Of a DNA stretch of 64,000 nt, positions 14,307-43,577 are shown piece by piece. Source of the DNA: Candidatus Omnitrophota bacterium (GTDB taxonomy: Bacteria; Omnitrophota; Gorgyraeia; Duberdicusellales; 4484-171); NCBI GenBank assembly GCA_041652815.1, contig JBAZGN010000002.1, positions 302,261 to 366,260 of the forward strand, in the 5' to 3' direction. The notes beneath the pieces were generated by a model. It searched no databases. It was not told the origin of the DNA and saw only the letters and a list, made by a program, of their open reading frames with translations. Made by a program: the position numbers and the translations under genes. Positions within the stretch are counted from its first letter, which is position 1; every line of letters starts with the position of its first letter.

Positions 14307-15047
14307 ATGATTAGTTTATTATTAGCTTTACAGTTCTTAACGATTATTCCTGTCAAAGTTAAAAATTTTACGGAAAAAAAACTTATTATTTCAATGATAT
14401 TTTTTCCTGTAATCGGCCTTTTTATCGCGCTGCTATTGGCCGCGTTGAACAATTTTTTCTTATCTATTGGTTTTAGTGATTTTACCACCAATATCATTCT
14501 GGTCGTCGCTCTTGTTGTAATTACCGGCGGTATGCATCTCGACGGGCTTTCCGATACATTCGATGCGATATCAAGTACAAAACCAAAAGAAACTATGCTT
14601 GCAATCATGCGCGATTCGCGCTGTGGAGTTATGGGGGTTTTAAGTATCATCTGCGTATTATTGCTGAAAATTTCTTTTCTTTCTTCTGTAAATTCTATCG
14701 ACAAAATAAGCGCGCTTATTTTAATGTGTATTCTTGGCAGATGGTCACTCGTATTTTTGCTTTTTATGTTTCCGTATGCGCGCAAAGAAGGCAAGGGCAA
14801 AATTTTCAGCGAAGGAATCAATCTAAAAATATTTATTACCGCAACGATTTTTTCTTTAACCTGCGCATTCATATTTTTTGGAATAAATGGCCTGTCAATT
14901 ATGGTTTTAGCCGTATTGCTTGCTTTTATATTCGGTAAATTCATGGTCAAAAAAATCGAAGGTATTACGGGTGATAGCTTAGGCGCTGTTTGTGAGTTGA
15001 TTGAGGTTATAGTGTTATTTGCAGCAGCGATTTTAACAAATAGTTAA
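14307..15047 (+). CDS. cobS: adenosylcobinamide-GDP ribazoletransferase (cobalamin synthase)
   Basis: MISLLLALQFLTIIP N-terminus and polytopic membrane protein typical of CobS; RBS aagg upstream of ATG 14307 (track ORF 14202 is N-extended). Confidence 0.75.
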   Translation: MISLLLALQFLTIIPVKVKNFTEKKLIISMIFFPVIGLFIALLLAALNNFFLSIGFSDFTTNIILVVALVVITGGMHLDGLSDTFDAISSTKPKETMLAIMRDSRCGVMGVLSIICVLLLKISFLSSVNSIDKISALILMCILGRWSLVFLLFMFPYARKEGKGKIFSEGINLKIFITATIFSLTCAFIFFGINGLSIMVLAVLLAFIFGKFMVKKIEGITGDSLGAVCELIEVIVLFAAAILTNS

Positions 15048-32460: not shown

Positions 32461-33222
32461 ATGAAACAATGGTATGAATCGCTATTTGAGAATTACGCAG
32501 ATAAATACGATAAAGAAGTTTATGTTCACGGTACCTTGGGTGAGTGCGATTTTATTGAGCAAGAGATAAATCGGGATAAATCGTTAAAAATCATTGATGT
32601 CGGCTGCGGCACCGGCCGTCATTCTATTGAATTGGCAAAAAGAGGTTATCGGGTTACCGGTATCGATTTGTCAGAGTCACAGCTTAAAAGGGCGAGGGAA
32701 AAAGCAAAAGAGCAAGGAGTGAAGATCGACTTCGAGAGGCATGACGCCAGAAACCTTCCTTTTGAAGGCGAGTTCGATCTGGCGATCATGCTCTGTGAGG
32801 GTGGTTTTTCTTTAATGGAAACGGATGAGATGAATTTTGAAATATTAAAGAACGCGACAAAGGCGTTAAAAGATAAGGGCAAGTTTATATTCACGACATT
32901 GAACGGGTTATTTCCGCTTTTTCATTCCGTCAAAGAATTTTATGAGTCGGCGGCCAAAGAGGGTAATTCCGCCTGTAAAAATTGCTCCTTCGATCTGATG
33001 ACGTTCCGTGACCACAACACCGTCGCCTTCGAGGATGATGCAGGGAATAAAAAAGAATTAACATGTAATGAGCGTTACTATGTGCCGAGTGAAATAACCT
33101 GGCTTTTAAAATCGCTCGGATATAAAAAAATTGATATTTGCGGAGCAAAACTTGGAGCTTTTTCGAGGGAAGATAAACTTACGACAGAGAATTTTGAGAT
33201 GTTAGTTATCGCTGAAAAATAG
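32461..33222 (+). CDS. class I SAM-dependent methyltransferase
   Basis: IDVGCGTGRHS motif I, ITGIDLSE motif II. Confidence 0.65.
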   Translation: MKQWYESLFENYADKYDKEVYVHGTLGECDFIEQEINRDKSLKIIDVGCGTGRHSIELAKRGYRVTGIDLSESQLKRAREKAKEQGVKIDFERHDARNLPFEGEFDLAIMLCEGGFSLMETDEMNFEILKNATKALKDKGKFIFTTLNGLFPLFHSVKEFYESAAKEGNSACKNCSFDLMTFRDHNTVAFEDDAGNKKELTCNERYYVPSEITWLLKSLGYKKIDICGAKLGAFSREDKLTTENFEMLVIAEK

Positions 33223-33337
33223 AAATGATGTATAACGCACGAATGAGCACGAAATGAGGGACGTTCCCCAAGGGGACACCCTGGTGTTGTATAGCATATT
33301 GGGATACGATGAGTAAGTATAGCATATATATAAAGAC

Positions 33338-33702
33338 GTTCGGCTGACCCTTGGTTCGTTTTATACAAGTCTCTCAAAAACATCCTTCCGTTGCTTTTGG
33401 TATGAAATATGCACCGCCCGCTTGGGCGGGCTTGGTGGTTGGCGCATTCACCGCTCGCCCCGCCTTGGGCGGGGACTTCGCTGCCTCGCTCGCTGGGCCG
33501 CTCGCTCTCTCAAGCAGTCTTGCCTCGCGCTCCCTGCGCCGCTAGGGCGGCTCCGGGGCTTGGCAAGCCTGCGGAACCACGTTTGTCCCGCGGTCGTAGC
33601 GTTTTGATACCCTTCCTCAGGCACCCGCTTTCGTCGGGCTTTCGCGCTTCGCGCAAATTTTTTCCTTTTCAATAAATCCTTTTCGGCTGGCGGCGGGGGA
33701 AA
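33338..33702 (+). repeat. GC-rich long repeat A, copy A1 (inverted copy at 50698..51053)
   Basis: ~360 bp with near-identity to the reverse complement of 50698..51053 apart from a divergent ~50-bp middle; contains hairpins gcccgcttgggcgggc and ccccgccttgggcgggg; starts at core cgttcggctg. Confidence 0.85.
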
Positions 33703-34180
33703 GGGGGGTAAAGCCCTCCTCAAGCAGGCGCCATCGTCGGGGTATTGTTTTGCCTTAGTAAAGGCAAAACACCCCGCCAAACCATCCCCCGACCACCCAG
33801 CTGTCGCAGCCGGGCGGCTTCAATCGCCTTTGGCGATTTTCGCTCCACCCTTTATGCGCCAGCTTTCCCCTCAGCGGAAAAAGAAACCTGTATATTTGGT
33901 TTTTTTCAAATCCCCACCCACCCAACAGTCACAGTCGGGCGGCTCCAATCTGTCGATTTCCGCATCGCCCTTTATGTGCCTGTTTTCCCCCTAAGAAATA
34001 ATACGCTATAACCTGGATTCTCCTTTCATTTCTTTTCATTCTACATCCCACCCAGCGCTTCGCGCTTCCTCATTTGTCAAGGATACTACGGCTTCCTTCC
34101 CCGAAGGGGCAGGACTTCCGTTCCTCCTTGACAAACGAGCCTCTCTGGATGTTTTAAATAAAAAAATGAAAGGAGGTGTT
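33703..34180 (+). repeat. GC-rich structured non-coding block with two tandem ~85-bp units (U1 33786..33878, U2 33911..33993) and long hairpin ttgtcaagga...tccttgacaa
   Basis: Units cccacccaRcaGtcRcagYcgggcggctYcaatc...ccctttatgYgcc; hairpin gttttgccttagtaaaggcaaaac; no credible ORF; GC far above window average. Confidence 0.7.
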
Positions 34181-34182
34181 CA

Positions 34183-34434
34183 ATGGAAAAGAAAATTTAT
34201 AAGTTAGAAAAGAGGCCTAGTAAATACAAAGTTCCTACTGCCCATTCCTCAAAGTCCTTATATGACCTTCAGATGTATCTCAATAAAAGCCGTGTGCGAA
34301 AGGGTTTGAATGCCCGCAAGAAACTGGTTAAAAAGTACAAAAGGCCAAATGGTTTTCTTCCAATGCTCAAATTGCTCGCCTTCTATTATGCCCTTGTCGG
34401 GCTAGTTATCCTATTGGCAAAACTAGGTATTTAG
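34183..34434 (+). CDS. small basic protein with C-terminal TM helix
   Basis: RBS aaaggagg; 83 aa; C-terminal LKLLAFYYALVGLVILLAKL. Confidence 0.45.
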   Translation: MEKKIYKLEKRPSKYKVPTAHSSKSLYDLQMYLNKSRVRKGLNARKKLVKKYKRPNGFLPMLKLLAFYYALVGLVILLAKLGI

Positions 34435-34472
34435 ATATTGCACCCTGTATTCAAAATGTGGTATAATACAAT

Positions 34473-35519
34473 ATGGCTGAGTTTGTTGTATCGGATAACT
34501 CCTATTCCAACCTGCTAAAGCAGATAAAACACGAAATAACCGACGGCCTAGTCCGCGCCCAAAAGGCTTATGAACGGGAAAAAGTTATTTCTTACTGGAA
34601 AATTGGTCAAGCCATAGATAAACACCTGTTGGAGAATAAGGACAGAGCCGATTACGGCAAGCAGTTGTATAGCCGGCTTTCGCGCGATTTAAATATCGGC
34701 GAACGCTTGCTTTACCAGATGTCGCAATTCTATTATGCCTACCCGGATTTAAAGCCTTCGCAAAACCTTAAATGGTCTCATTACCGGTTGCTGACTTCGG
34801 TTAAAGACGAAGAGCAGAGGGCTATACTCGAAACCAAAGCCGCCGACGACAACTGGTCGAAGCGCGCCTTGGAAACTTTCATTAAGGACGACAAGGAAAA
34901 AAGCGTTAAAGCCGCCAAGCCAAAATCTACAAAACTATCTTTTTTTAAGGGCCAGCTTTATACTTACGGTATATTTAAAGACGCTTGTGCTGAAAATGTT
35001 CTTATAGACTGCGGGTTTAATGTTTACTATGAATCAGATATGACAAAGTTCCCCGCTACCTCATTAAAGTCATCGGGCGGATCCGCCTTTGGCAGAAGCG
35101 GCAATCTGGTAGAAACTGTTAAAACCGGCGACACTTACAAGCTGGTCAAGTCCAACGCCACCCTTAAGCATTTATACACCTATAAAGCCTACGTTAAAAA
35201 AATCGTGGACGGCGATACCCTTTGGGTAACCATAGATTGCGGGTTTAAAATCTGGGTCAGTCAGAAGCTCCGCTTGCGCGGCATAGACACGCCTGGCATT
35301 ACAACCAAAGAGGGCATGAAATCTTACAAGTTCGTTTGCAATGAACTTAAAGGCTTACCGTTTGTTATAATAAAAAGCCACGGCCGGGATAAATACGACC
35401 GTTACCTTACGGATATATTCTACTTAAAGGACGGAAAAGACCCCCTAGCGGTCTTAGAGAAAGGTGAATTCTTAAACCAAAGGCTTTTAGACGCAAGCTT
35501 AGCAGATAGAGAGTTTTAG
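34473..35519 (+). CDS. DUF1016_N (YhcG-like N-terminal domain) fused to staphylococcal-nuclease-like (SNase/thermonuclease) domain
   Basis: N-terminal YWKIGQAI...RADYGKQLYSRLSRDL...WSHYRLL matches YhcG DUF1016_N; C-terminal IVDGDTLWV...LRLRGIDTPG...DKYDRYL matches SNase (DGDT, RLxGIDTPE, DKYGR) with the catalytic Glu position replaced by Gly. Confidence 0.65.
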   Translation: MAEFVVSDNSYSNLLKQIKHEITDGLVRAQKAYEREKVISYWKIGQAIDKHLLENKDRADYGKQLYSRLSRDLNIGERLLYQMSQFYYAYPDLKPSQNLKWSHYRLLTSVKDEEQRAILETKAADDNWSKRALETFIKDDKEKSVKAAKPKSTKLSFFKGQLYTYGIFKDACAENVLIDCGFNVYYESDMTKFPATSLKSSGGSAFGRSGNLVETVKTGDTYKLVKSNATLKHLYTYKAYVKKIVDGDTLWVTIDCGFKIWVSQKLRLRGIDTPGITTKEGMKSYKFVCNELKGLPFVIIKSHGRDKYDRYLTDIFYLKDGKDPLAVLEKGEFLNQRLLDASLADREF

Positions 35520-35585
35520 ATTATGTTAAGCTGGAATCCTTCGAAGCTTTAGAGCAGTAGGACGAAAGCCTTGCCGAGAGTTAAA

Positions 35586-35605
35586 CTACGTAGTATACTA
35601 CGTAG
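35586..35605. promoter_or_regulatory. perfect 20-bp palindrome CTACGTAGTATACTACGTAG (candidate operator overlapping -10-like TATACT)
   Basis: Exact self-complementary 20-mer 18 bp upstream of the AbrB-like small ORF. Confidence 0.6.
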
Positions 35606-35622
35606 TAATGGGGGTGTAGATA

Positions 35623-35799
35623 ATGGCACAACATAAGAAAAAAGGCGGCGTTACCCGAAAAATCACCAAGACTGGCGATTATACTTATTACGTAACCATT
35701 CCCGCGGAATATATCGAGGAGTTGGGCTGGCGCTGTAAACAAAAGGTATTGGTTAAACTTTTAGGGAAAAAAGTGGTTATTGAGGATTGGAGGGGATAG
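35623..35799 (+). CDS. small AbrB/MazE-like (swapped-hairpin) DNA-binding protein, 58 aa (below track threshold)
   Basis: MAQHKKKGGVTRKITKTGDYTYYVTIPAEYIEELGWRCKQKVLVKLLGKKVVIEDWRG; TIP..I..LG...G..V pattern of SpoVT/AbrB domain. Confidence 0.5.
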   Translation: MAQHKKKGGVTRKITKTGDYTYYVTIPAEYIEELGWRCKQKVLVKLLGKKVVIEDWRG

Positions 35800-35886
35800 A
35801 ATTGCCCTTCTCACTCAGGGTTGTTTGGATCATTTAAATGGTGTATAATCAACTAATATTTCCTAATTTTAAGGAGAAGATAGCTA

Positions 35887-37341
35887 ATGTTTGAGCAAAC
35901 CTTTAAGAATATTGACGATATCCTGCATAAAGATGCCGGGTGCAGTAGCGAGCTGGATTATGTGGAGCAGACCTCATGGATTCTCTTCTTGAAATATCTT
36001 GATGATCTCGAGAAAGATAAAAAAACAGCGGCAAAGCTATCAGGCAAGGCTCACGCGGGTATTATTAGCCCGGAATATCGCTGGGAAGTCTGGGCAGTCC
36101 CTAAAGATAATGACGGCAAGATTGATCATCACAAGGCGCTTACCGGAGATGATTTAAAAGATTTTGTCGACCACAAGTTATTTCCCTACCTAAAAAAGTT
36201 TAAAACCAATGCCGAGAGCGCCGATACTATCGAGTATAAAATTGGCGAGATTTTTAGCGAGCTTAAAAATAGAATCCAGAGTGGTTATAATCTGCGAGAG
36301 GTTATTAATTTAATAGATGAACTGCGTTTCCGTTCCCATGCCGAAAAACATGAGATGTCTCATCTATATGAGGACAAGATCAAGAATATGGGGAATGCGG
36401 GTAGAAACGGCGGGGAATATTACACGCCCCGTCCGCTTATCAAAACCATCGTGAAAGTTGTCGCTCCGGAAATCGGAAGCAAGATTTATGATGGCGCAGT
36501 AGGTTCGGCAGGGTTTTTGTGCGAAGCATTTGAATATCTTAAGACCAAAAAAAATCTAACCACAAAAGACGCCCAGACCCTACAGAAAAACACCTTTTAC
36601 GGCAAAGAAAAGAAATCGCTCGCCTACATCATCGGTACGATGAACATGATTTTGCATGGCATCGAGGCGCCGAATATCGTGCATACCAATACGCTTGCGG
36701 AAAACCTCGCCGATATTCAAGAAAAAGATCGTTATGATATTGTTCTCGCCAATCCGCCATTTGGTGGCAAGGAACGTGCCGAGGTGCAACAGAATTTCCC
36801 TATCAAGACCGGTGAAACGGCGTTTTTATTCTTACAGCATTTCATCAAGATTCTGAAAGCTGGCGGTCAGGCTGGCGTAGTGATTAAAAACACTTTCCTC
36901 TCCAACGCGGACAATGCTTCAGTCAGTCTTCGCAAACTTCTGCTGGAAAGCTGTAATCTGCATGCAGTCCTTGATCTGCCCGGCGGTACATTTACTGGCG
37001 CAGGTGTTAAGACTGTCGTACTTTTCTTTGAGAAAGGCGTTCCGACGCGTAAGGTTTGGTTTTATCAGCTAAATCTTGACCGCAACCTTGGCAAGACTAA
37101 CCCGCTGAATGAAAATGATCTCGCTGATTTCTTAATGCTTCAAAAGACCAAAGCGGACTCAGAGAATTCTTGGTCTGTTGATATTGTCGATGTAGATAAG
37201 GAAACAAGCGATCTATCGGTCAAGAATCCGCATAGAAGAAATGAAATAACTATTCGCGCCCCTCAAATAATTCTAGATGAAATGCAGACGCTGGACATGG
37301 AAAGCGCGAAGATATTGAAGGGCATAAAAGAGCTGTTATGA
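35887..37341 (+). CDS. hsdM: type I restriction-modification system methyltransferase subunit
   Basis: N6-adenine MTase motifs: NPPFG (ANPPFGGKERAEV), motif I GSAGFL; HsdM_N-like N-terminus. Confidence 0.85.
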   Translation: MFEQTFKNIDDILHKDAGCSSELDYVEQTSWILFLKYLDDLEKDKKTAAKLSGKAHAGIISPEYRWEVWAVPKDNDGKIDHHKALTGDDLKDFVDHKLFPYLKKFKTNAESADTIEYKIGEIFSELKNRIQSGYNLREVINLIDELRFRSHAEKHEMSHLYEDKIKNMGNAGRNGGEYYTPRPLIKTIVKVVAPEIGSKIYDGAVGSAGFLCEAFEYLKTKKNLTTKDAQTLQKNTFYGKEKKSLAYIIGTMNMILHGIEAPNIVHTNTLAENLADIQEKDRYDIVLANPPFGGKERAEVQQNFPIKTGETAFLFLQHFIKILKAGGQAGVVIKNTFLSNADNASVSLRKLLLESCNLHAVLDLPGGTFTGAGVKTVVLFFEKGVPTRKVWFYQLNLDRNLGKTNPLNENDLADFLMLQKTKADSENSWSVDIVDVDKETSDLSVKNPHRRNEITIRAPQIILDEMQTLDMESAKILKGIKELL

Positions 37342-38489
37342 GTAATCGATGGGAAAATAAAACTCTTGGCGAAGTCTGTGAGATTTTGGATAACAGACGC
37401 AAGCCAATCACAAAACGAGATCGGACTGCCGGTGAGTATCCTTACTACGGAGCTACTGGTATTTTGGATTATGTGCATGATTATATTTTTGATGAAAAGT
37501 TGATTTTGATTGGTGAGGATGGGGCAAAATGGGGAGCTGGTGAGAATACGGCATTTATTGCAGAAGGAAAATATTGGGTGAATAATCACGCCCATGTTAT
37601 CAGGCCTGATAGAAAAATTGTTTTAGATAATTGGTTAGTTTATTTCTTAAACTTTAGCGATTTATCCAAGTACGTTACAGGTTTAACAGTCCCCAAGCTC
37701 AATCAAGCGAAGATGCGAGAAATTTCACTGCCTCTTCCACCGATTTCCGAGCAAAAGAAAATGCTTCATGTAATTGATGAGATTTTCGAAAAGACAACTA
37801 AGGCAAAAGAAAACGCTGAAAAGAATCTGCAAAATGCTCGAGAGCTTTTTGAGTCGTACTTGCAAAGCATTTTTGCCAATCCGGGCGATGATTGGGAAGA
37901 AAAAAGTGTTGGTGAGATTGCTGATATTGAATATGGATTCACTGATAAAGCAAAATACGCGGGTGATTATCGATACATCAGGATCACGGATATTGATAAG
38001 AACGGAAATTTAGTAAAAGATGGCAAGGTTTTTGTTGATGCTTCCGAAGAGGCTAAAAAATATTTATTAAAGGATGGTGATCTGTTAATGGTAAGGACCG
38101 GCGCAACCTATGCGAAAGTATTGCTATACAAAGACATTGAAAAATCAATTTTTGCTTCTTATTTGATCCGGATCAAGTTTAGACAGGATATTGTAAACAA
38201 GCTTTACTGGTATTTCTCCAAATCCAGAATTTATTGGGAACAAGCAAACAAGCTTTCTTCTGGCTCTGCTCAGCCACAGTTTAACGGCGGAGTATTAAAA
38301 GAGCTTGTGTTTTATTTTCCGAGATCCTTTGAGAAACAAGGACAGATTGTCACCAAGCTTGATGCTCTTTCCACGGAGATTAAAAAACTCGAGATTGTAT
38401 ATCAGCAGAAGCTAATTGATCTTGAAGAACTTAAGAAACCGATATTACATAAGGCCTTTAACGGTGAACTCGCAGGAGTATGCTCATGA
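37338..38489 (+). CDS. hsdS: type I restriction-modification system specificity subunit
   Basis: Two target-recognition domains separated by conserved coiled-coil repeats; overlaps hsdM stop and hsdR start. Confidence 0.8.
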   Translation: MSNRWENKTLGEVCEILDNRRKPITKRDRTAGEYPYYGATGILDYVHDYIFDEKLILIGEDGAKWGAGENTAFIAEGKYWVNNHAHVIRPDRKIVLDNWLVYFLNFSDLSKYVTGLTVPKLNQAKMREISLPLPPISEQKKMLHVIDEIFEKTTKAKENAEKNLQNARELFESYLQSIFANPGDDWEEKSVGEIADIEYGFTDKAKYAGDYRYIRITDIDKNGNLVKDGKVFVDASEEAKKYLLKDGDLLMVRTGATYAKVLLYKDIEKSIFASYLIRIKFRQDIVNKLYWYFSKSRIYWEQANKLSSGSAQPQFNGGVLKELVFYFPRSFEKQGQIVTKLDALSTEIKKLEIVYQQKLIDLEELKKPILHKAFNGELAGVCS

Positions 38490-40792
38490 ATGAAGCCGAA
38501 ACCAGAGCAGAATATATTGATCCTAAGCTAAAAGCCAGCGGCTGGGGTATCGTGGAAGGCACCAAGGTTCTGCGTGAATACAAAATCACTGCCGGTAAAA
38601 TCCAGACTGGTGGAGGTCGCGCCAAGCCGTTGATTGCTGACTATGTTCTGGTGTATCGCGGTCGTAAGCTTGCCATCATTGAAGCCAAGAGTGATGAGCT
38701 TGAAGTTGGCGAAGGCGTTGCTCAAGCCAAGAACTATGCCGAAATGATGCATCTTGATACGACTTATGCCAGTAACGGCAAAGAGATTTACCAAATCTGT
38801 ATGAAAACCGGGAAGGAAGGCTTGGTTGCTTCTTTCCCGTCACCGGAAGAATTATGGAATAGAACTTTTGAGACGCAAAACCAATGGCGGGATAAGTTTA
38901 ATCAAGTCCCGTTTGAAGATGTCGGCGGTACAAAAGAAGTGCGCTATTATCAGGAAATCGCGGTTAATAACGCTATGGCCGCCATTGCCGAAGATAAACC
39001 GCGCATATTGCTTACCTTGGCCACAGGCACCGGTAAAACCTTCATCGCTTTTCAGATAGCGTGGAAACTTTATCATACCCGCTGGAACTTGAAGCGCGAT
39101 GGAAGCCGTAGACCTCGTATTTTATTTCTTGCCGATAGAAATATTCTTGCTGATCAGGCATTCAACGCCTTTTCAACATTCCCCGAGGACGCGCTCGTTC
39201 GAATTAACCCCAAAGAAATCAGCAAAAAAGGCAGTGTTCCGACTAACGGCAGTATTTTCTTTACCATCTTTCAGACCTTTATGAGCGGTAAGGATAAAGA
39301 CGGTAAGCCTGCTCCATACTTTGGCGAATATCCTGTAGATTATTTTGATTTTATCATTATTGATGAATGTCATCGCGGCGGGGCGAATGACGAAAGCAAT
39401 TGGCGAGGTATTCTGGAATATTTCTCTCCTGCTGTACAGCTCGGCCTTACCGCAACGCCTAAACGTAAAGATAACGTTGATACTTATCGCTATTTTGGTG
39501 ATCCGGTTTATGTATATTCGCTTAAAGAAGGTATCAACGATGGATTTTTAACACCGTTTAAAATTAAGCGAATCAAGACGACTATTGATGATTATGTTTA
39601 TACTTCGGACGATAAGATTATAGAAGGTGAAATTGAAGAGGGGAGAATATACACAGAGCCGGATTTCAATAGAATTATAGAGATTAAAGAGCGTGAATCT
39701 AAGCGAGCGCAGATATTCCTTTCTGAAATTAATCAAAAAGAGAAAACTATCGTTTTTTGTGCTACCCAAGATCATGCGCTCGCAGTACGCGATCTGGTTA
39801 ATCAATATAAAGATAGCAAGGAACCCAATTATTGTGTGCGCGTTACCGCTAACGATGGTTTTCTTGGTGAACAGTATTTGAGAGAATTTCAGGATAACGA
39901 GAAAACCATCCCAACGATACTAACTACCTCACAAAAATTATCTACGGGCGTAGATGCGCGTAATATTAGAAATATTATACTTATGCGGCCGATTAATTCT
40001 ATAATTGAGTTTAAACAAATTATTGGACGTGGGACACGGTTATTTGAAGGGAAAGATTATTTTACTATTTATGATTTCGTTGATGCGTATCACCATTTTT
40101 TAGATCCTACTTGGGATGGTGAACCAATAGACGAAACAAAGGAGAAGGAGCCAAAGAAGCCGAAAGAGCCACCTGTTCCTCCAGAACCACCTGAGCCGCC
40201 CAAGAAGAAGATTAAGATTAAGCTGCGCGATGGTAAGGAGAGAGAAATACAGCATATGATTGCGACAACTTTCTTAAGTGCTGATGGTAGGCCAATGTCT
40301 GCAGAAGAATTCTTAAAGAGCATCTTTGGGGCATTGCCTGAATTCTTCAAAAATGAAGACGAGTTGCGTAAAATTTGGTCTAACCCGATTACCCGGAGGG
40401 CGTTGCTTGAAAAACTATTTAATGCTGGCTACGGTAAAGATGAACTAGCTGCTTTGCAGAAATTAATTAATGCTGAGAAGAGCGATCTATTTGATGTCCT
40501 CGAATACATTTCTTTCGCTATAAAACCAATCACGCGAGAAGAACGTGTTGCACAGGCACAGACAAAGATTTTTCAAGGGTTGGATAATAAACAAAAGGAG
40601 TTTCTGGAGTTTGTGCTTTCTAAATATATTGAAACTGGTGTGGAGGAGCTTGATCAGGAAAAACTGCCAGACCTTCTGACTCTGAAATATCAGGCAATTC
40701 GTGACGCAGAGGAAATATTGGGCGGGGTTGATAGTATCCGTGCCACTTTTATTGATTTCCAGAAGTATTTGTATGAGAAAGTGGTAGTTTGA
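38486..40792 (+). CDS. hsdR: type I restriction endonuclease subunit R (short, ~769 aa)
   Basis: N-terminal MNEAETRAEYIDPKL nuclease domain, helicase motifs ATGTGKT and DECH (IIIDECHRG), SAT/QxxGR motifs; proline-rich insert EPPVPPEPPEPP. Confidence 0.8.
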   Translation: MNEAETRAEYIDPKLKASGWGIVEGTKVLREYKITAGKIQTGGGRAKPLIADYVLVYRGRKLAIIEAKSDELEVGEGVAQAKNYAEMMHLDTTYASNGKEIYQICMKTGKEGLVASFPSPEELWNRTFETQNQWRDKFNQVPFEDVGGTKEVRYYQEIAVNNAMAAIAEDKPRILLTLATGTGKTFIAFQIAWKLYHTRWNLKRDGSRRPRILFLADRNILADQAFNAFSTFPEDALVRINPKEISKKGSVPTNGSIFFTIFQTFMSGKDKDGKPAPYFGEYPVDYFDFIIIDECHRGGANDESNWRGILEYFSPAVQLGLTATPKRKDNVDTYRYFGDPVYVYSLKEGINDGFLTPFKIKRIKTTIDDYVYTSDDKIIEGEIEEGRIYTEPDFNRIIEIKERESKRAQIFLSEINQKEKTIVFCATQDHALAVRDLVNQYKDSKEPNYCVRVTANDGFLGEQYLREFQDNEKTIPTILTTSQKLSTGVDARNIRNIILMRPINSIIEFKQIIGRGTRLFEGKDYFTIYDFVDAYHHFLDPTWDGEPIDETKEKEPKKPKEPPVPPEPPEPPKKKIKIKLRDGKEREIQHMIATTFLSADGRPMSAEEFLKSIFGALPEFFKNEDELRKIWSNPITRRALLEKLFNAGYGKDELAALQKLINAEKSDLFDVLEYISFAIKPITREERVAQAQTKIFQGLDNKQKEFLEFVLSKYIETGVEELDQEKLPDLLTLKYQAIRDAEEILGGVDSIRATFIDFQKYLYEKVVV

Positions 40793-40953
40793 TAATTCTA
40801 ATTCGGTGGGCACGCACGTAATTATTTACAATTAGGTCTCCAGAATTTCAGAATTTTTCAGATGTTTTGGCGATAGAGATTATCGAAAACATCGAGGTTG
40901 GGTTGGAGAGCTTTAAGAGGATTATTGAGAAATTAAATAAGTAGGCACCTTAA

Positions 40954-42450
40954 ATGAATGTTTATTTTTCTGATATTTTTGATGTTAAACCAAAGACGAT
41001 AGAAAAATATGGTGCATTTAATGTTTCATTAATAAATGACCTGCCTTTGTTTATCGATCCCTTCCTATTGTTCAATAGCGACAAAAAAGAGTATCAAAAA
41101 TTACACGAAGATATTTTAAAATATGTAGCCTTTCTTCGTGACCGTTCTATTTCTATTGAGGTTAGCGATGGTTTATTGCGTAGTTGGTATTGTTTTCCCG
41201 AGGTTAAGCAAACATGGCTTGGTTATAGCGAGATTGGGAATGCGGGGCGAGGTCCTGGTATTGAGTTCGCAAAATCCCTGGACAATAATTTAAGTAATAT
41301 ATTCGCTGATTTTGATAAAAATAAGATATCCCGTAGCGCTCATCTTGAAAAATTATGTTTAATAAGGGAAAACACAGGGCGTGATAATATCAGCGATTTT
41401 GTGACTAATTTAATTAAGGGCTATCTTTTATCATATACCCAAGATTTCGCGCGAAAATATATTGATGTTTCCAGGTTGAAAGAGTTTAATGTGTCCCGGG
41501 TTGTTTTTAACTATAAAACATCGTCTTGGGTATCTTCTAAGCATATGTTGCCTTGCTTTGATAATGATTTTGTGTTGCTCACACCGCGCGATCTTCTAAC
41601 TAAAGACGATACTTGGATTAATAAGCCAGATTTAATCAATCAATTTGATAATATCGTTTTATCTGTATCGAATGACCAATTGCGTTCACAATTGAATTTT
41701 TATTTTTCACAGAATTTGCCTAAGCCAGAATACACAAAAAAAGGTAAAGAAAAAAAGCCAGCCAAGAAGGATATAGCCAAGGCGATTAATGCCGTTATGC
41801 AAAAATATCCTGTTTTGCTTGATTACTACATAAAATACAAAGAAGATCAAGGGGATAATGCAGTATCTATTAGCGCTGAACGAGTAGAAGAGGTTTATAG
41901 CCTTTTTGTTGAGAAATTATCATTATTTATTAGTTACTTATTTAGCAAAACTGATTTTTATAAAAGTTCTGGCAATACGTTACGAGAAAGTTATCAGAGG
42001 GTTATGTTCTTAAAACATGTCATAGAGGATCAGGATGGTTATAAAATATTTTACCCGACGCCTGACGGTAAGCCAATCAATCGTGAATCATACTTGCATA
42101 TTATGTTTAAGTTGACTTGGTGTGCAAGCGAGTCAGCTATTACACCGGAAACGAATGCCGGTCGGGGGCCGGTAGATTTCGCGATATCGAAAGGCGCGCG
42201 CGATAAGACATTGGTTGAATTTAAATTAGCTTCGAGTTCTAAGCTTCGGCAGAATCTTTTAAACCAAGTTGAAATTTATAAAAAGGCGCATGATACGAAT
42301 AAAGCGATAAAGGTTATTTTGTTTTTTTCCGCAGAAGAGGAATCACGGGCAAAAGGAATAATTGGTGATTTAGGTCTTTTAAATGAGAAGTATATTGTTC
42401 TTATTGATGCTAGGAGAGATAATAAGGTGTCAGCCTCAAAGGCTAAGTAA
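40954..42450 (+). CDS. hypothetical protein with duplicated NAGRGP motif and C-terminal PD-(D/E)xK-like signature
   Basis: SEIGNAGRGPGIEF and TPETNAGRGPVDFAISKGARDKTLVEFKLA; immediately downstream of hsdR. Confidence 0.4.
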   Translation: MNVYFSDIFDVKPKTIEKYGAFNVSLINDLPLFIDPFLLFNSDKKEYQKLHEDILKYVAFLRDRSISIEVSDGLLRSWYCFPEVKQTWLGYSEIGNAGRGPGIEFAKSLDNNLSNIFADFDKNKISRSAHLEKLCLIRENTGRDNISDFVTNLIKGYLLSYTQDFARKYIDVSRLKEFNVSRVVFNYKTSSWVSSKHMLPCFDNDFVLLTPRDLLTKDDTWINKPDLINQFDNIVLSVSNDQLRSQLNFYFSQNLPKPEYTKKGKEKKPAKKDIAKAINAVMQKYPVLLDYYIKYKEDQGDNAVSISAERVEEVYSLFVEKLSLFISYLFSKTDFYKSSGNTLRESYQRVMFLKHVIEDQDGYKIFYPTPDGKPINRESYLHIMFKLTWCASESAITPETNAGRGPVDFAISKGARDKTLVEFKLASSSKLRQNLLNQVEIYKKAHDTNKAIKVILFFSAEEESRAKGIIGDLGLLNEKYIVLIDARRDNKVSASKAK

Positions 42451-42656
42451 AGTGCCGTAAATTATGGAGGTTTTTATGCCCGACGGAGGATTTTTAGTTA
42501 AGTTTGACGGTAAAGAAGCGTTCAGGTGCTATGAGATAAGTTTTTCTTATGATTCGTTTACATACCGCATTAACAACGAAGAGCCTAAAGAATTTCCCAA
42601 GGAAGGTATTGGGAAAATAGAAATAATCCTCGAATAACCTGCAACAGTAAAAAAGC

Positions 42657-43577
42657 ATGCCAAAAAAGAAAATATGGTCAGGAGATTTTGAAGTAAAAAA
42701 TAATCTGCTTTATTACCTGCCTGCCGAAGACGATAAGCTTAACGTTGGTCATGCCTTAAAAGTAGTAGGCAAATGGGATATTACTAAAAATGGTCGCCTG
42801 CGATTTATTGTTGATAACTCGCAAAACCAGATTTTCGGTAAAACCATCTCTGTAGGCTCCGAACTTAGCCGCGTCAATACAGGAAGCTTAGAGTTTAGGG
42901 CGGCTCACCGCATAACCCCTACCGGTAAAAATGTAAAAACAATTGCGCTATCTGGTGAATTGACCGCGCTCGCCGGTAAAAAGCTTGCTTTTGAAATAGA
43001 GCGCGAAGGCGCGATTGATACTTTAAAATTAAACGGCACCTGGGATGTATTTGATGGCAACCAGATTGGATGTCTTATTAAGCGCACCTGCAGTGGCAAG
43101 CAAATAACCAATTCGGTTGCGTTAAAGGGTACTTGGGAAATTGCGGGTAATATCCTGTCGTATCAGGTGGAGAAATCCAACAAGCCGTTTTTGGCCCAGG
43201 AATTTGAAATCAAACGGGCAATCTACACCGACAAAGAAAGCGGCATTGATTTTACTTTAGGCGCGGACCTGCGGTGCGAAACCGCTCGCCGGGGCGCGAG
43301 CGATACAGTTTCTCTTAAGGGCACGTGGAAACAAGATGGGGCAAAAGCCGAATTTATTTTTACTTCCGCAAGGCGTCAGTCGTTTACCTTTATTTTAAGC
43401 CGTAAACTTTCCAACGATAAAGAGCTTGTTTTCGAACTAGATACAGGCGAGGATAGAAAACCTTCTTTTACATTGACTTTTGCCAAAAAGATTAAGGGTG
43501 ACAGCAGTTTCTTTATTCGTGGTAAGATTTCTGAAAAAGAAAAACGTGCCGAGGCAGGATTCTATTTCCCATTTTGA
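42657..43577 (+). CDS. hypothetical protein with repeated L(K/N)GTW beta-strand modules
   Basis: Repeats VVGKWDITKNG / LNGTWDVFDGN / LKGTWEIAGN / LKGTWKQDGA. Confidence 0.4.
   Translation: MPKKKIWSGDFEVKNNLLYYLPAEDDKLNVGHALKVVGKWDITKNGRLRFIVDNSQNQIFGKTISVGSELSRVNTGSLEFRAAHRITPTGKNVKTIALSGELTALAGKKLAFEIEREGAIDTLKLNGTWDVFDGNQIGCLIKRTCSGKQITNSVALKGTWEIAGNILSYQVEKSNKPFLAQEFEIKRAIYTDKESGIDFTLGADLRCETARRGASDTVSLKGTWKQDGAKAEFIFTSARRQSFTFILSRKLSNDKELVFELDTGEDRKPSFTLTFAKKIKGDSSFFIRGKISEKEKRAEAGFYFPF

What the first reader, a model, noticed from the sequence alone, without database searches (positions are those of the whole stretch)
35586..35799. Perfect 20-bp palindrome plus 58-aa AbrB/MazE-like ORF immediately upstream of hsdM: candidate controller of the type I R-M system
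CTACGTAGTATACTACGTAG is exactly self-complementary and overlaps a -10-like TATACT. Eighteen bp downstream is an unannotated ORF (35623–35799) with a swapped-hairpin AbrB/SpoVT-like sequence (YYVTIPAEYIEELGW...KVLVKLLGKKVVIE). Small autoregulated DNA-binding proteins ahead of R-M genes act as C-protein-like timers. This arrangement with a type I system is uncommon.
Basis: partly seen in the sequence, partly recalled or inferred. Interest (0 to 1): 0.55.

Follow-up and report, generated by a model that had tools for sequence, protein, structure and literature searches.

The report
Self-regulating AbrB-type repressor before hsdM
A 58-residue AbrB/MazE-fold DNA-binding protein with a conserved TACGTA-N6-TACGTA operator over its own promoter sits directly upstream of a type I restriction-modification operon, but comparison with relatives shows the R-M genes were inserted behind a pre-existing regulator unit that other genomes carry without them.

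Summary
A perfect 22-bp palindrome (35585-35606) overlaps a promoter-like TTGCCG-17-TATACT. The 58-aa ORF (35623-35799) belongs to the AbrB/MazE/SpoVT fold.

New here: the palindrome is the family's conserved operator, TACGTA-N6-TACGTA. In 150 related loci there are 113 sites with at most one mismatch, against about 4.6 expected. Of these, 74 lie within 160 nt upstream of the homologous gene.

The "dedicated type I R-M controller" reading is only partly supported.
- Among the closest relatives, the gene follows a DUF1016_N/SNase-like gene in about 25 loci.
- The genes downstream vary: orf53, Thoeris ThsB, a HaeIII endonuclease, a reverse transcriptase, Vsr, and three different hsdM lineages. 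Eleven of 28 are on the opposite strand.
- Against L014 (84% DNA identity), window 35798-42465 (hsdMSR plus a PDC-M36A-like gene) is a clean 6.7-kb insertion between the AbrB stop codon and orf53.
- hsdM has its own promoter-like site and no operator.

However, 13 of 84 same-strand downstream neighbours across the wider family are DNA methyltransferases, against at most 3 of 145 controls. Some are translationally coupled to the AbrB-like gene. In L045 the operator precedes hsdM.

Best reading: an autonomous autorepressor unit whose read-through may modulate hsdMSR.

The parts
35585..35606 (.). Perfect 22-bp palindrome and inferred operator. Half-sites TACGTA lie at 35587-35592 and 35599-35604, separated by GTATAC.
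   Evidence: The motif TACGTA-N6-TACGTA is conserved upstream of homologues in 58 of 150 loci.
35571..35599 (+). Promoter-like site TTGCCG-17 nt-TATACT. The -10 (35594-35599) lies inside the operator.
   Evidence: The same -35 (TTGCY), 17-nt spacer and TAT(A/G)CT geometry is seen in L004, L013, L014 and L015.
35610..35616 (+). Shine-Dalgarno-like GGGGGTG, 6 nt before the ATG.
   Evidence: Read. GGAGG sits at the equivalent position in relatives.
35623..35799 (+). 58-aa minimal AbrB/MazE/SpoVT-fold protein; inferred autorepressor.
34473..35519 (+). Conserved upstream partner: a 348-aa protein with a DUF1016_N domain (PADLOC PDC-S02-like N-terminal half) fused to a truncated SNase-like domain.
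   Evidence: It lies next to the AbrB-like gene in about 25 close relatives.
34183..34434 (+). 83-aa ORF with a hydrophobic C-terminus; the first gene of the conserved module.
35798..42465 (.). 6.67-kb block absent from L014, L004 and L112: hsdM, hsdS, hsdR and a 498-aa PDC-M36A-like gene. It sits between the AbrB stop codon and the orf53 ribosome-binding site.
   Evidence: homology to L014 runs 34257-35797 and resumes at 42466. Also (no flanking repeats).
35821..35849 (+). hsdM's own promoter-like element, TTGTTT-17 nt-TATAAT, read by eye. It contains no TACGTA site. The hsdM SD AAGGAG is at 35871-35876.
   Evidence: Read. It is below the threshold of the scan. Comparable TGGTAAAAT elements precede hsdM in L098 and L034.
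35887..40792 (+). Type I R-M operon: hsdM 35887-37341, hsdS 37338-38489, hsdR 38480-40792.
   Evidence: N6_Mtase plus HsdM_N; Methylase_S twice; ResIII plus EcoEI_R_C.
40954..42450 (+). 498-aa gene with a PADLOC PDC-M36A hit; part of the inserted block.
42476..43577 (+). orf53 (42476-42637) and orf306 (42657-43577). In relatives these are the genes that directly follow the AbrB-like gene.

Best explanation
The 58-aa ORF encodes a minimal AbrB/MazE/SpoVT-type (swapped-hairpin) DNA-binding protein.

Proposed mechanism:
- Acting as a dimer or higher oligomer (inferred), it binds the operator TACGTA-GTATAC-TACGTA. The operator covers the spacer and the -10 (TATACT) of its own promoter.
- Binding therefore represses its own transcription (negative autoregulation, inferred).
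- Gene plus operator form an autonomous unit at the head of a transcription unit whose downstream content varies between genomes.
- In the ancestral arrangement the unit sits behind a DUF1016_N/SNase-like gene and leads orf53 and orf306.
- In this window, a 6.7-kb cassette (type I hsdMSR plus a PDC-M36A-like gene) has been inserted directly behind the regulator gene.
- With no terminator in between, read-through from the autoregulated promoter probably adds a self-limiting input to hsdMSR transcription, on top of hsdM's own promoter (inferred).

The protein is therefore not a dedicated R-M controller. It is a generic leader repressor that can act in a C-protein-like way on whatever lies downstream.
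For: Fold:
- PF04014 hit at E=1.1e-4 for the window protein.
- 98 of 106 family members hit PF04014, best 6e-11.
- The family profile hits the AbrB N-domain structures 1z0r, 1yfb and 2k1n at 7e-5 over the full length.
- The AF2 model has pLDDT 88.7. Its top Foldseek hits are MazE, AbrB, VapB and SpoVT, with TM 0.66-0.74.

Operator:
- The identical geometry (site about 36 nt before the ATG) occurs in L004, L013, L014, L015, L022, L025, L096 and L098.
- Across the family there are 54 perfect and 59 one-mismatch sites in 1.3 Mb, against 0.05 and 4.6 in shuffles. Of these, 74 lie within 160 nt upstream of the gene.
- The site overlaps a promoter-like -10.

Autonomy of the unit:
- In L098 the unit is separated from the DUF1016 gene by 2.7 kb of opposite-strand genes, yet it keeps its operator.
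- In L001, L018, L028 and L055 the operator sits in front of the DUF1016 gene, which then leads a DUF1016-AbrB operon.

Insertion and variable cargo.

No terminator or stable hairpin between the ORF and hsdM.
Against: - There is no experimental evidence for expression, DNA binding or repression.
- The window protein alone scores below Pfam's gathering threshold (22.5 against 24.7 bits).
- The promoter is only a consensus match.
- Only a monomer could be modelled, so the oligomeric state and the way it docks on DNA are untested.
- The read-through contribution to hsdM could be negligible, because hsdM has its own promoter-like site with a perfect TATAAT.
- A regulator with only its own promoter as a visible target in 64 kb may have distant targets that I cannot see.
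Confidence: 0.62

Rival explanations
1. It is a dedicated C-protein-like controller of the type I R-M system. The AbrB-like protein would time or limit hsdMSR expression after the system enters a new host, and it would belong functionally to the R-M cassette.
For: - Same strand, an 87-nt gap and no terminator.
- The AbrB-like gene lies directly before hsdM in L098 (HsdM 81% identical), in L034 (42%) and in L025 (a third lineage).
- Wider family: 13 of 84 same-strand downstream neighbours are DNA methyltransferases, against at most 3 of 145 control genes 4-8 kb away. Fisher p is at most 2e-4.
- Tight or overlapping AbrB-R-M gene pairs occur in L073 (gap -4), L075 (3), L161 (4) and L154 (27).
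- In L045 the operator lies about 60 nt before an hsdM that is 72% identical to the window's, and before a GmrSD gene.
- Precedent: HsdC, a C protein upstream of hsdMSR in Mycoplasma gallisepticum (PMC5282649, PMC12707154).
Against: - The R-M block is an insertion relative to L014, L004 and L112, which keep the regulator and operator without any R-M genes.
- AbrB and DUF1016 identities track each other (L014: 81% and 84%; L098: 68% and 59%), whereas HsdM is 81% identical in L098. The R-M cassette therefore moved independently of the regulator.
- 11 of 28 close relatives have opposite-strand genes downstream.
- There is no operator at hsdM's own promoter-like site.
- Extra operator sites in distant relatives also precede housekeeping genes such as PGK, TrmD and S1.
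Confidence: 0.25
2. It is the antitoxin of a reversed-order toxin-antitoxin pair, and the upstream DUF1016_N/SNase-like protein is the nuclease toxin.
For: - The two genes are adjacent in about 25 loci from Omnitrophota, Planctomycetia and Auribacterota.
- The fold is MazE/VapB-like.
- The operator is autoregulatory, as in type II TA systems.
- In L171 an SNase-domain gene with two operators lies near a distant family member.
Against: - The protein is 58 aa and the DNA-binding fold spans residues ~10-57. This leaves no C-terminal toxin-binding tail, which MazE, VapB and PrlF antitoxins need (the requirement is from general knowledge).
- The SNase-like domain is truncated. It lacks the general-base Glu43 in the window (DTPG), and Asp40 is Asn in several relatives.
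- Most family members (CPR, Bdellovibrionales and others) have no DUF1016 or SNase neighbour.
- In L098 the two genes are separated by 2.7 kb.
- There is no PADLOC or NCBIfam toxin-antitoxin hit.
Confidence: 0.08
3. The palindrome is a chance feature, a recombination site or a transcription terminator, and the ORF is a spurious short reading frame.
For: - A palindrome of 22 nt or more arises in 4% of simulated 64-kb windows.
- The locus borders a variable insertion site.
Against: - The ORF is conserved at 42-84% identity in more than 150 loci and 318 cluster representatives.
- The motif is enriched more than 20-fold and is positioned upstream of the gene.
- The insertion junction is about 190 nt away, after the stop codon, and not at the palindrome.
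- No T-run follows the palindrome, so it is not terminator-like.
Confidence: 0.02

Closest known systems
AbrB N-terminal domain / Abh / SpoVT of Bacillus subtilis (swapped-hairpin transition-state regulators; PDB 1z0r, 1yfb, 2k1n, 2ro5, 2w1t)
   Same: The family profile aligns over the full length at 7e-5. The beta-beta-alpha-beta-beta topology and fold match. The Arg that aligns with AbrB Arg8 is conserved as R12 (alignments). AbrB also represses its own gene (general knowledge).
   Different: - The protein is only 58 aa and has no C-terminal multimerisation domain.
- It has a 4-residue insertion (YTYY) in the first hairpin and a family-specific LGW(R/K)xKQK motif.
- It has a sharply defined operator, TACGTA-N6-TACGTA, whereas AbrB is known for lacking a clear consensus (general knowledge).
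MazE / VapB / PrlF-type type II antitoxins (PF04014)
   Same: They are the best Pfam family and the best structural hits: 1ub4 at TM 0.73, then 2mrn and 1mvf. They bind a palindromic operator at their own promoter.
   Different: There is no C-terminal toxin-neutralising extension and no recognised toxin partner. The neighbours are a DUF1016_N/SNase-like gene and hsdM.
R-M controller (C) proteins, including HsdC of Mycoplasma gallisepticum, which sits upstream of hsdM-hsdS-hsdR (PMC5282649; review PMC12707154)
   Same: - It is a small autoregulated DNA-binding protein encoded directly upstream of R-M genes and co-oriented with them.
- A repeat operator overlaps its own promoter.
- Additional target promoters occur elsewhere, as reported for HsdC (clpB, a tRNA cluster) and as seen here in relatives.
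- Family members are enriched upstream of DNA methyltransferase genes.
   Different: - The fold differs: swapped hairpin rather than helix-turn-helix.
- The operator differs: TACGTA-N6-TACGTA rather than a C-box or (GTGTTAN5)2.
- In this lineage the gene is not inherited together with the R-M system.
- Most family members do not lie next to R-M genes.
Regulators that precede diverse defence systems, such as BrxR/CapW-type WYL regulators (recalled from memory, not checked here)
   Same: One regulator family sits at the head of variable defence cargo. Here the cargo includes type I and type II R-M, Thoeris ThsB, a reverse transcriptase, a Lit-like peptidase and GmrSD.
   Different: The fold is unrelated and there is no ligand-sensing domain. 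The cargo is often on the opposite strand, and no induction signal can be proposed.

Membership tests
AbrB/MazE/SpoVT superfamily (Pfam PF04014, swapped-hairpin beta-barrel) | Sequence match to the family profile | tested here: inconclusive
   The window protein scores 22.5 bits (E=1.1e-4), below the gathering score of 24.7. However, 98 of 106 aligned relatives match at E<0.01, best 6e-11. The family profile also hits AbrB N-domains at 7e-5.
AbrB/MazE/SpoVT superfamily (Pfam PF04014, swapped-hairpin beta-barrel) | The beta-beta-alpha-beta-beta protomer fold | tested here: met
   The AF2 model has pLDDT 88.7. About 40 of the top 41 Foldseek PDB hits are MazE, AbrB, VapB, SpoVT or Sso7c4-type chains, with TM up to 0.74 and probability 1.00.
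AbrB/MazE/SpoVT superfamily (Pfam PF04014, swapped-hairpin beta-barrel) | An obligate homodimer that forms the interleaved barrel and binds DNA | not testable with these tools
   Only monomer prediction was available. DNA binding is supported only indirectly, by operator co-conservation.
R-M controller (C) proteins | A helix-turn-helix (Xre-like) DNA-binding fold | tested here: not met
   The fold is AbrB/MazE-type and there is no HTH Pfam hit.
R-M controller (C) proteins | A gene upstream of, and co-transcribed with, R-M genes, with an operator at its own promoter | tested here: inconclusive
   The operator lies over the -10. The gap to hsdM is 87 nt with no terminator. Co-transcription is untested, and hsdM has its own promoter-like site.
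R-M controller (C) proteins | Conserved linkage with an R-M system across relatives | tested here: not met
   In the close subfamily, hsdM lies downstream in 4 of 28 loci, and the R-M block is an insertion. In the wider family, 13 of 84 downstream neighbours are DNA methyltransferases. That is an enrichment, but a minority.
Type II antitoxin (MazE/VapB/PrlF type) | A C-terminal toxin-binding extension beyond the DNA-binding domain | tested here: not met
   The protein is 58 aa and the fold occupies residues ~10-57.
Type II antitoxin (MazE/VapB/PrlF type) | An adjacent cognate toxin gene of a known toxin family | tested here: not met
   The neighbours are DUF1016_N/SNase-like and HsdM. There is no TA hit in PADLOC or NCBIfam. 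The catalytic Glu of the SNase domain is absent.
Type I restriction-modification system (the downstream genes) | HsdM (N6_Mtase plus HsdM_N), HsdS (two target-recognition domains) and HsdR (helicase/ResIII plus a C-terminal domain) | tested here: met
   N6_Mtase 1.5e-61 and HsdM_N; Methylase_S in 2 stretches, 1.6e-47; ResIII 6.9e-37 and EcoEI_R_C 5.9e-27.
DUF1016/YhcG (PADLOC PDC-S02) for the upstream gene | A DUF1016_N domain followed by a PD-(D/E)XK nuclease domain | tested here: not met
   The N-terminal domain matches (Pfam 2.8e-20; PDC-S02 2.6e-27, residues 8-139 only). The C-terminal half is SNase-like rather than PD-(D/E)XK.

The most novel reading that the evidence does not exclude
This family (318 or more cluster representatives, mostly from Patescibacteria/CPR, Omnitrophota and other uncultivated phyla) may be a previously undescribed, non-HTH class of controller for R-M and other defence operons.

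In this reading, AbrB-fold proteins recognise a near-universal TACGTA-N6-TACGTA operator, sometimes arranged in 12-bp periodic arrays. They head type I, type IIG and type II R-M operons and set how those operons are expressed. The unit in the window would then genuinely govern the inserted hsdMSR cassette, giving an expression burst on entry into a naive cell followed by self-repression.
Probability: 0.3. Interest if true: 0.65.

Novelty: new member of a known kind. Interest (0 to 1): 0.45.

Why it matters
Transcriptional control of type I R-M systems is poorly documented. A 2025 review says there is "surprisingly little information" (PMC12707154), and the one clear case, HsdC in Mycoplasma, uses a helix-turn-helix C protein (PMC5282649).

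This work defines a protein-operator pair (58-aa AbrB fold; TACGTA-N6-TACGTA) that recurs across many uncultivated phyla, where almost no transcription factors have known sites. The pair sits at the head of R-M and other defence genes more often than chance would give. If binding is confirmed, three things follow:
- It gives a ready-made regulon marker for CPR and Omnitrophota genomes.
- It gives a possible second, structurally unrelated solution to the problem that C proteins solve.
- The locus becomes a clean natural example of a defence cassette captured behind a pre-existing autoregulated promoter.

Tried and rejected
- AF2 with the shallow 11-sequence alignment gave pLDDT 61.6 and was not used for fold search. 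The 106-sequence alignment solved this.
- The search for related loci with the broad alignment A2 failed because it has no conserved 7-10-column stretch. A1 was used instead.
- Rfam at E<=1 over 33000-36000 gave only a spurious lncRNA hit. The window has no tRNA or tmRNA, so a tRNA-linked island is not evident.
- No terminator-like site or significant hairpin lies between the ORF and hsdM (z=-0.25).
- No direct or inverted repeats flank the 6.7-kb insertion, so the mechanism of insertion is unknown.
- The DUF1016/SNase-like protein has no sequence relative in the PDB.
- The small ORF gave nothing in PADLOC or NCBIfam.
- The window holds no second copy of the gene and no second good operator.
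- Literature searches for an AbrB-type R-M controller, for DUF1016/PDC-S02 function and for a TACGTA operator found nothing relevant. This shows absence from that library only.
- The antitoxin reading and the chance or recombination-site reading were considered and rejected (see rivals).

Caveats:
- Neighbour genes in the loci were called with a simple longest-ORF script.
- Loci were retrieved through the peptide patterns YTYYVTIP and LGW[RK]xKQKV, so the sample is biased towards this subfamily.
- The control methyltransferase count (at most 3 of 145) is an upper bound inferred from an aggregated Pfam table.
- The shuffles for operator statistics were mononucleotide shuffles.
Full report
**1. 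Observation**

CTACGTAGTATACTACGTAG occupies 35586-35605 and extends by one complementary pair on each side to a perfect 22-nt palindrome, 35585-35606. It can equally be read as two copies of the 8-bp palindrome CTACGTAG set 12 bp apart. It can also be read as TACGTA-GTATAC-TACGTA.

These are the only two CTACGTAG in the window, against 0.25 expected. Nothing else matches the 20-mer within three mismatches.

It is the longest gapless palindrome in the window. In isolation this is only modestly unusual: a palindrome of 22 nt or more occurs in 8 of 200 Markov-1 simulations.

The consensus scan places TTGCCG-17 nt-TATACT at 35571-35599, so the -10 lies inside the palindrome.

The 58-aa ORF (35623-35799) has a GGGGGTG Shine-Dalgarno sequence 6 nt upstream. 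hsdM, hsdS and hsdR follow at 35887-40792.

The ORF is not unannotated in public records. The identical protein from a Candidatus Omnitrophica MAG is named an AbrB/MazE/SpoVT-family protein.

**2. What the protein is**

- The single sequence hits Pfam MazE_antitoxin (PF04014) at E=1.1e-4, just under the gathering score.
- A search of 1.84 billion cluster representatives with a profile of the 11 close homologues found 318 relatives. Nearly all are 55-70 aa and share the motif RK(L/I)TKTGxYTYYVTIPxE...LGW(R/K)ExQKV...GKK(I/V)(I/V)IEDWK.
- Of 106 aligned members, 98 hit PF04014, best 6e-11.
- The family profile matches the AbrB N-terminal domain structures over the full length at 7e-5. MazE, SpoVT, Abh and the archaeal C56/C68 proteins follow.
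- With the deep alignment, AF2 gives pLDDT 88.7.
- The top roughly 40 Foldseek PDB hits are all swapped-hairpin proteins (MazE, AbrB, VapB, SpoVT, Sso7c4), with TM 0.66-0.74.

The fold assignment is therefore sound. The protein consists of the DNA-binding domain only, with no room for a C-terminal toxin-binding or tetramerisation segment.

**3. The palindrome is the family's operator**

In the close homologues the same element sits at the same distance from the start codon, with the first TACGTA 34-37 nt before the ATG. It is seen in L004, L013, L014, L015, L022, L025, L096 and L098, and it is duplicated in L010, L031, L110 and L112. The -35 (TTGCY), the 17-nt spacer and the TAT(A/G)CT -10 are kept as well.

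The motif persists in relatives of only 42-57% identity from Patescibacteria, Saccharibacteria, Bdellovibrionales and others. There it is often the perfect palindrome TACGTAATTAATTACGTA.

Across 150 non-redundant loci (1.3 Mb):
- There are 54 perfect and 59 one-mismatch TACGTA-N6-TACGTA sites, against 0.05 and 4.6 in shuffles.
- 74 of them lie within 160 nt upstream of the homologous gene, in 58 loci.
- Several loci carry three or four hexamers at 12-bp periodicity (L040, L092, L130, L166). This suggests that the hexamer is the unit of recognition.

Co-inheritance of a protein family with a fixed site in front of its own gene is the classical signature of an autoregulator. Binding itself remains an inference.

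**4. Context: what the gene is linked to**

In about 25 close relatives from Omnitrophota, Planctomycetia and Auribacterota, the gene directly follows a ~335-350-aa DUF1016_N protein. That gene in turn follows an ~85-aa ORF with a hydrophobic tail.

The window's version of the DUF1016_N protein (34473-35519) matches DUF1016_N and PADLOC PDC-S02 only in its N-terminal 140 residues. Its C-terminal half is a truncated staphylococcal-nuclease-like domain (DGDT...RLRGIDTPG...DKYDRY). The general-base Glu43 is Gly in the window, and Asp40 is Asn in several relatives.

In L001, L018, L028 and L055 the operator sits in front of the DUF1016 gene instead of the AbrB-like gene, giving an operator-controlled DUF1016-AbrB operon. 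Autoregulation is thus the invariant, and control of the DUF1016 gene is optional.

What lies downstream is highly variable:
- orf53 plus orf306, 14-16 nt away (L004, L010, L014, L101, L112);
- Thoeris ThsB TIR proteins (L001, opposite strand);
- a HaeIII endonuclease (L015, opposite strand);
- a reverse transcriptase (L018, opposite strand);
- a Lit-like U49 peptidase (L019);
- a DNA methylase (L028, opposite strand);
- Vsr (L010, L013), TaqI_C (L004), and DUF4379, DUF6602 and DUF6804 proteins;
- hsdM of three different lineages: the window and L098 (81% identical), L034 (42%) and L025 (25%).

Eleven of 28 close loci have an opposite-strand gene next.

**5. The R-M operon is an insertion**

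Against L014 (84% DNA identity), homology runs from 34257 to 35797 and resumes at 42466, with only a few bases between the two in L014. The window therefore carries a clean 6.67-kb block (35798-42465) between the AbrB stop codon and the ribosome-binding site of orf53. The block holds hsdM, hsdS, hsdR and a 498-aa gene with a PDC-M36A hit. No flanking repeats were found.

AbrB and DUF1016 identities fall together (L014: 81% and 84%; L098: 68% and 59%). HsdM, by contrast, is 81% identical between the window and L098. The R-M cassette has therefore moved independently of the regulator and landed at the same place.

hsdM carries its own promoter-like element, TTGTTT-17-TATAAT at 35821-35849, read by eye and below the scan's threshold. 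It has no TACGTA hexamer. Similar TGGTAAAAT elements precede hsdM in L098 and L034.

There is no terminator or significant hairpin in the 87-nt gap.

**6. Family-level link to R-M**

Of 84 same-strand genes immediately downstream of family members, 13 are DNA methyltransferases: 8 N6_Mtase (5 of them with HsdM_N), 4 N6_N4_Mtase and 1 EcoRI methylase. Among 145 control genes 4-8 kb away in the same loci, no DNA methyltransferase family reached two members, so there are at most 3. Fisher p is at most 2e-4.

Some pairs are translationally coupled or nearly so:
- L073: gap -4, N6_N4 methyltransferase;
- L075: gap 3, Eco57I/MmeI-like;
- L161: gap 4, an 897-aa type IIG/L enzyme;
- L154: gap 27, HsdM;
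- L138: gap 65, HsdM.

In L045 the type I system is of the window's own lineage (HsdM 72% and HsdR 70% identical). Its hsdM is preceded by the operator about 60 nt upstream. The AbrB-like gene lies after hsdR with its own operator. A third operator copy, inside a ~100-nt repeated segment, precedes a GmrSD type IV enzyme.

Other extra sites precede RhuM and an SNase gene, but also PGK, TrmD, an S1-domain gene and NIF3. The regulon is therefore not restricted to defence genes.

Upstream neighbours include Fic (5), RhuM (3) and AbiEii. From general knowledge, these genes often accompany type I operons.

**7. Mechanism proposed**

Shown computationally: the fold; operator conservation and position; overlap with a promoter-like site; the insertion; the absence of a terminator.

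Inferred:
- The protein dimerises, as all swapped-hairpin domains do.
- It binds the two TACGTA hexamers, which lie 12 bp apart centre to centre. Either one dimer spans both, or one dimer binds per hexamer with cooperative contacts.
- Binding occludes the -10 and shuts off its own promoter once enough protein has accumulated.
- Genes placed downstream in the same orientation receive this self-limiting transcription.

In the window those genes are hsdM, hsdS, hsdR and the PDC-M36A-like gene, and only then orf53 and orf306. In a naive cell this would give an initial burst followed by repression, on top of whatever hsdM's own promoter provides. That resembles a C-protein-like effect. I put the autorepressor part at about 0.85, and a material effect on hsdMSR at about 0.4-0.5.

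**8. Comparison with known systems**

It works like AbrB or MazE at their own promoters. In its position it resembles C proteins, especially HsdC of M. gallisepticum, which precedes hsdMSR, binds (GTGTTAN5)2 and has extra targets (PMC5282649; PMC12707154).

- It is a member of the AbrB/MazE/SpoVT superfamily: the fold is met and the profile is met at family level.
- It is not a member of the C-protein family, because it has no HTH.
- It does not fit the definition of a type II antitoxin, because it has no tail and no known toxin partner.

I found no description of an AbrB-type R-M controller or of this operator in the searchable literature.

**9. Verdict**

The element is a new, well-defined member of a known kind: an AbrB-fold autoregulator with a newly deduced operator. 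Its relation to this particular type I system is most likely secondary, the result of cassette insertion behind a pre-existing regulator unit. The family as a whole may include genuine non-HTH controllers of R-M operons. Interest 0.45.

Noticed in passing
window 35798-42465: A 6.67-kb block (hsdM, hsdS, hsdR and a 498-aa gene with a PADLOC PDC-M36A hit) is a clean insertion relative to L014, L004 and L112. It has no flanking direct or inverted repeats. The same intergenic site carries different defence genes in other genomes, so it behaves as a defence-gene hotspot.
   Followed up: yes
window 34473-35519: A 348-aa protein fuses a DUF1016_N (PDC-S02-like) N-terminal domain to a truncated SNase-like domain instead of the usual PD-(D/E)XK domain. 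The catalytic Glu43 equivalent is Gly here, but Glu in L018, L022, L027 and L028. By eye, the gene has a TTGCAC-18-TGgTATAAT promoter ending 5 nt before the ATG, which suggests a leaderless mRNA. Relatives have a TTGCACAC..GTGTGCAA palindrome at that -35 (L001 4582-4598; L004 456-472).
   Followed up: partly
window 34019-34175: A conserved, strongly structured non-coding leader lies upstream of the 83-aa ORF. It has an invariant stem CATTTGTCAAGG...CCTTGACAAACG enclosing variable GC-rich hairpins. An upstream CTCCTTTCAT can pair with the ORF's ATGAAAGGAG Shine-Dalgarno region. Fold z-score is -4.5. It is conserved in L001, L004, L013, L019, L023 and L025 and has no Rfam match. It may be a translational control element or a small RNA.
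   Followed up: partly
window 33380-34000: A GC-rich (57%) non-coding stretch contains internal repeats and many short GC hairpins. Pieces of it (33415-33530, 33795-33870) recur near the module in L019 (two copies, inverted), L001, L027, L096 and L110. It may be a repeat element or a MITE-like sequence.
   Followed up: no
window 42476-42637 and 42657-43577: orf53 (MPDGGFLVKFDGKE...) and a 306-aa ORF have no Pfam, PADLOC or NCBIfam hit. They are the conserved genes that directly follow the AbrB-like gene in relatives. In L018, L019 and L024, orf53 lies inverted 1-2 kb downstream, on the far side of the variable genes.
   Followed up: partly
L045 1-117 and 7170-7275: A ~100-nt segment containing the operator (TTACGTAATTAATTACTTAC) is repeated in front of hsdM and in front of a GmrSD gene. 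The same operator variant recurs on many contigs of the same metagenome series (L043, L047, L053, L056). It may be a portable promoter/operator cassette.
   Followed up: partly
L130 4453-4482, 7925-7954, 8478-8519, 12878-12907; L040 7946-7987; L166 7960-8001: These are arrays of three or four TACGTA hexamers at strict 12-bp periodicity, several per locus. They suggest cooperative multi-dimer binding and a local regulon.
   Followed up: no
window 14703-14722 and 2484-2499: Two other long perfect palindromes share a core: AAAATAAGCGCGCTTATTTT and AAAATGCGCGCATTTT. They may be another operator family or bidirectional terminators.
   Followed up: no
L098 7776-9896: In the Auribacterota relative, an extra 706-aa gene lies between hsdS and hsdR of the otherwise homologous type I operon. 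It is another example of genes embedded in type I operons. It was not annotated here.
   Followed up: no
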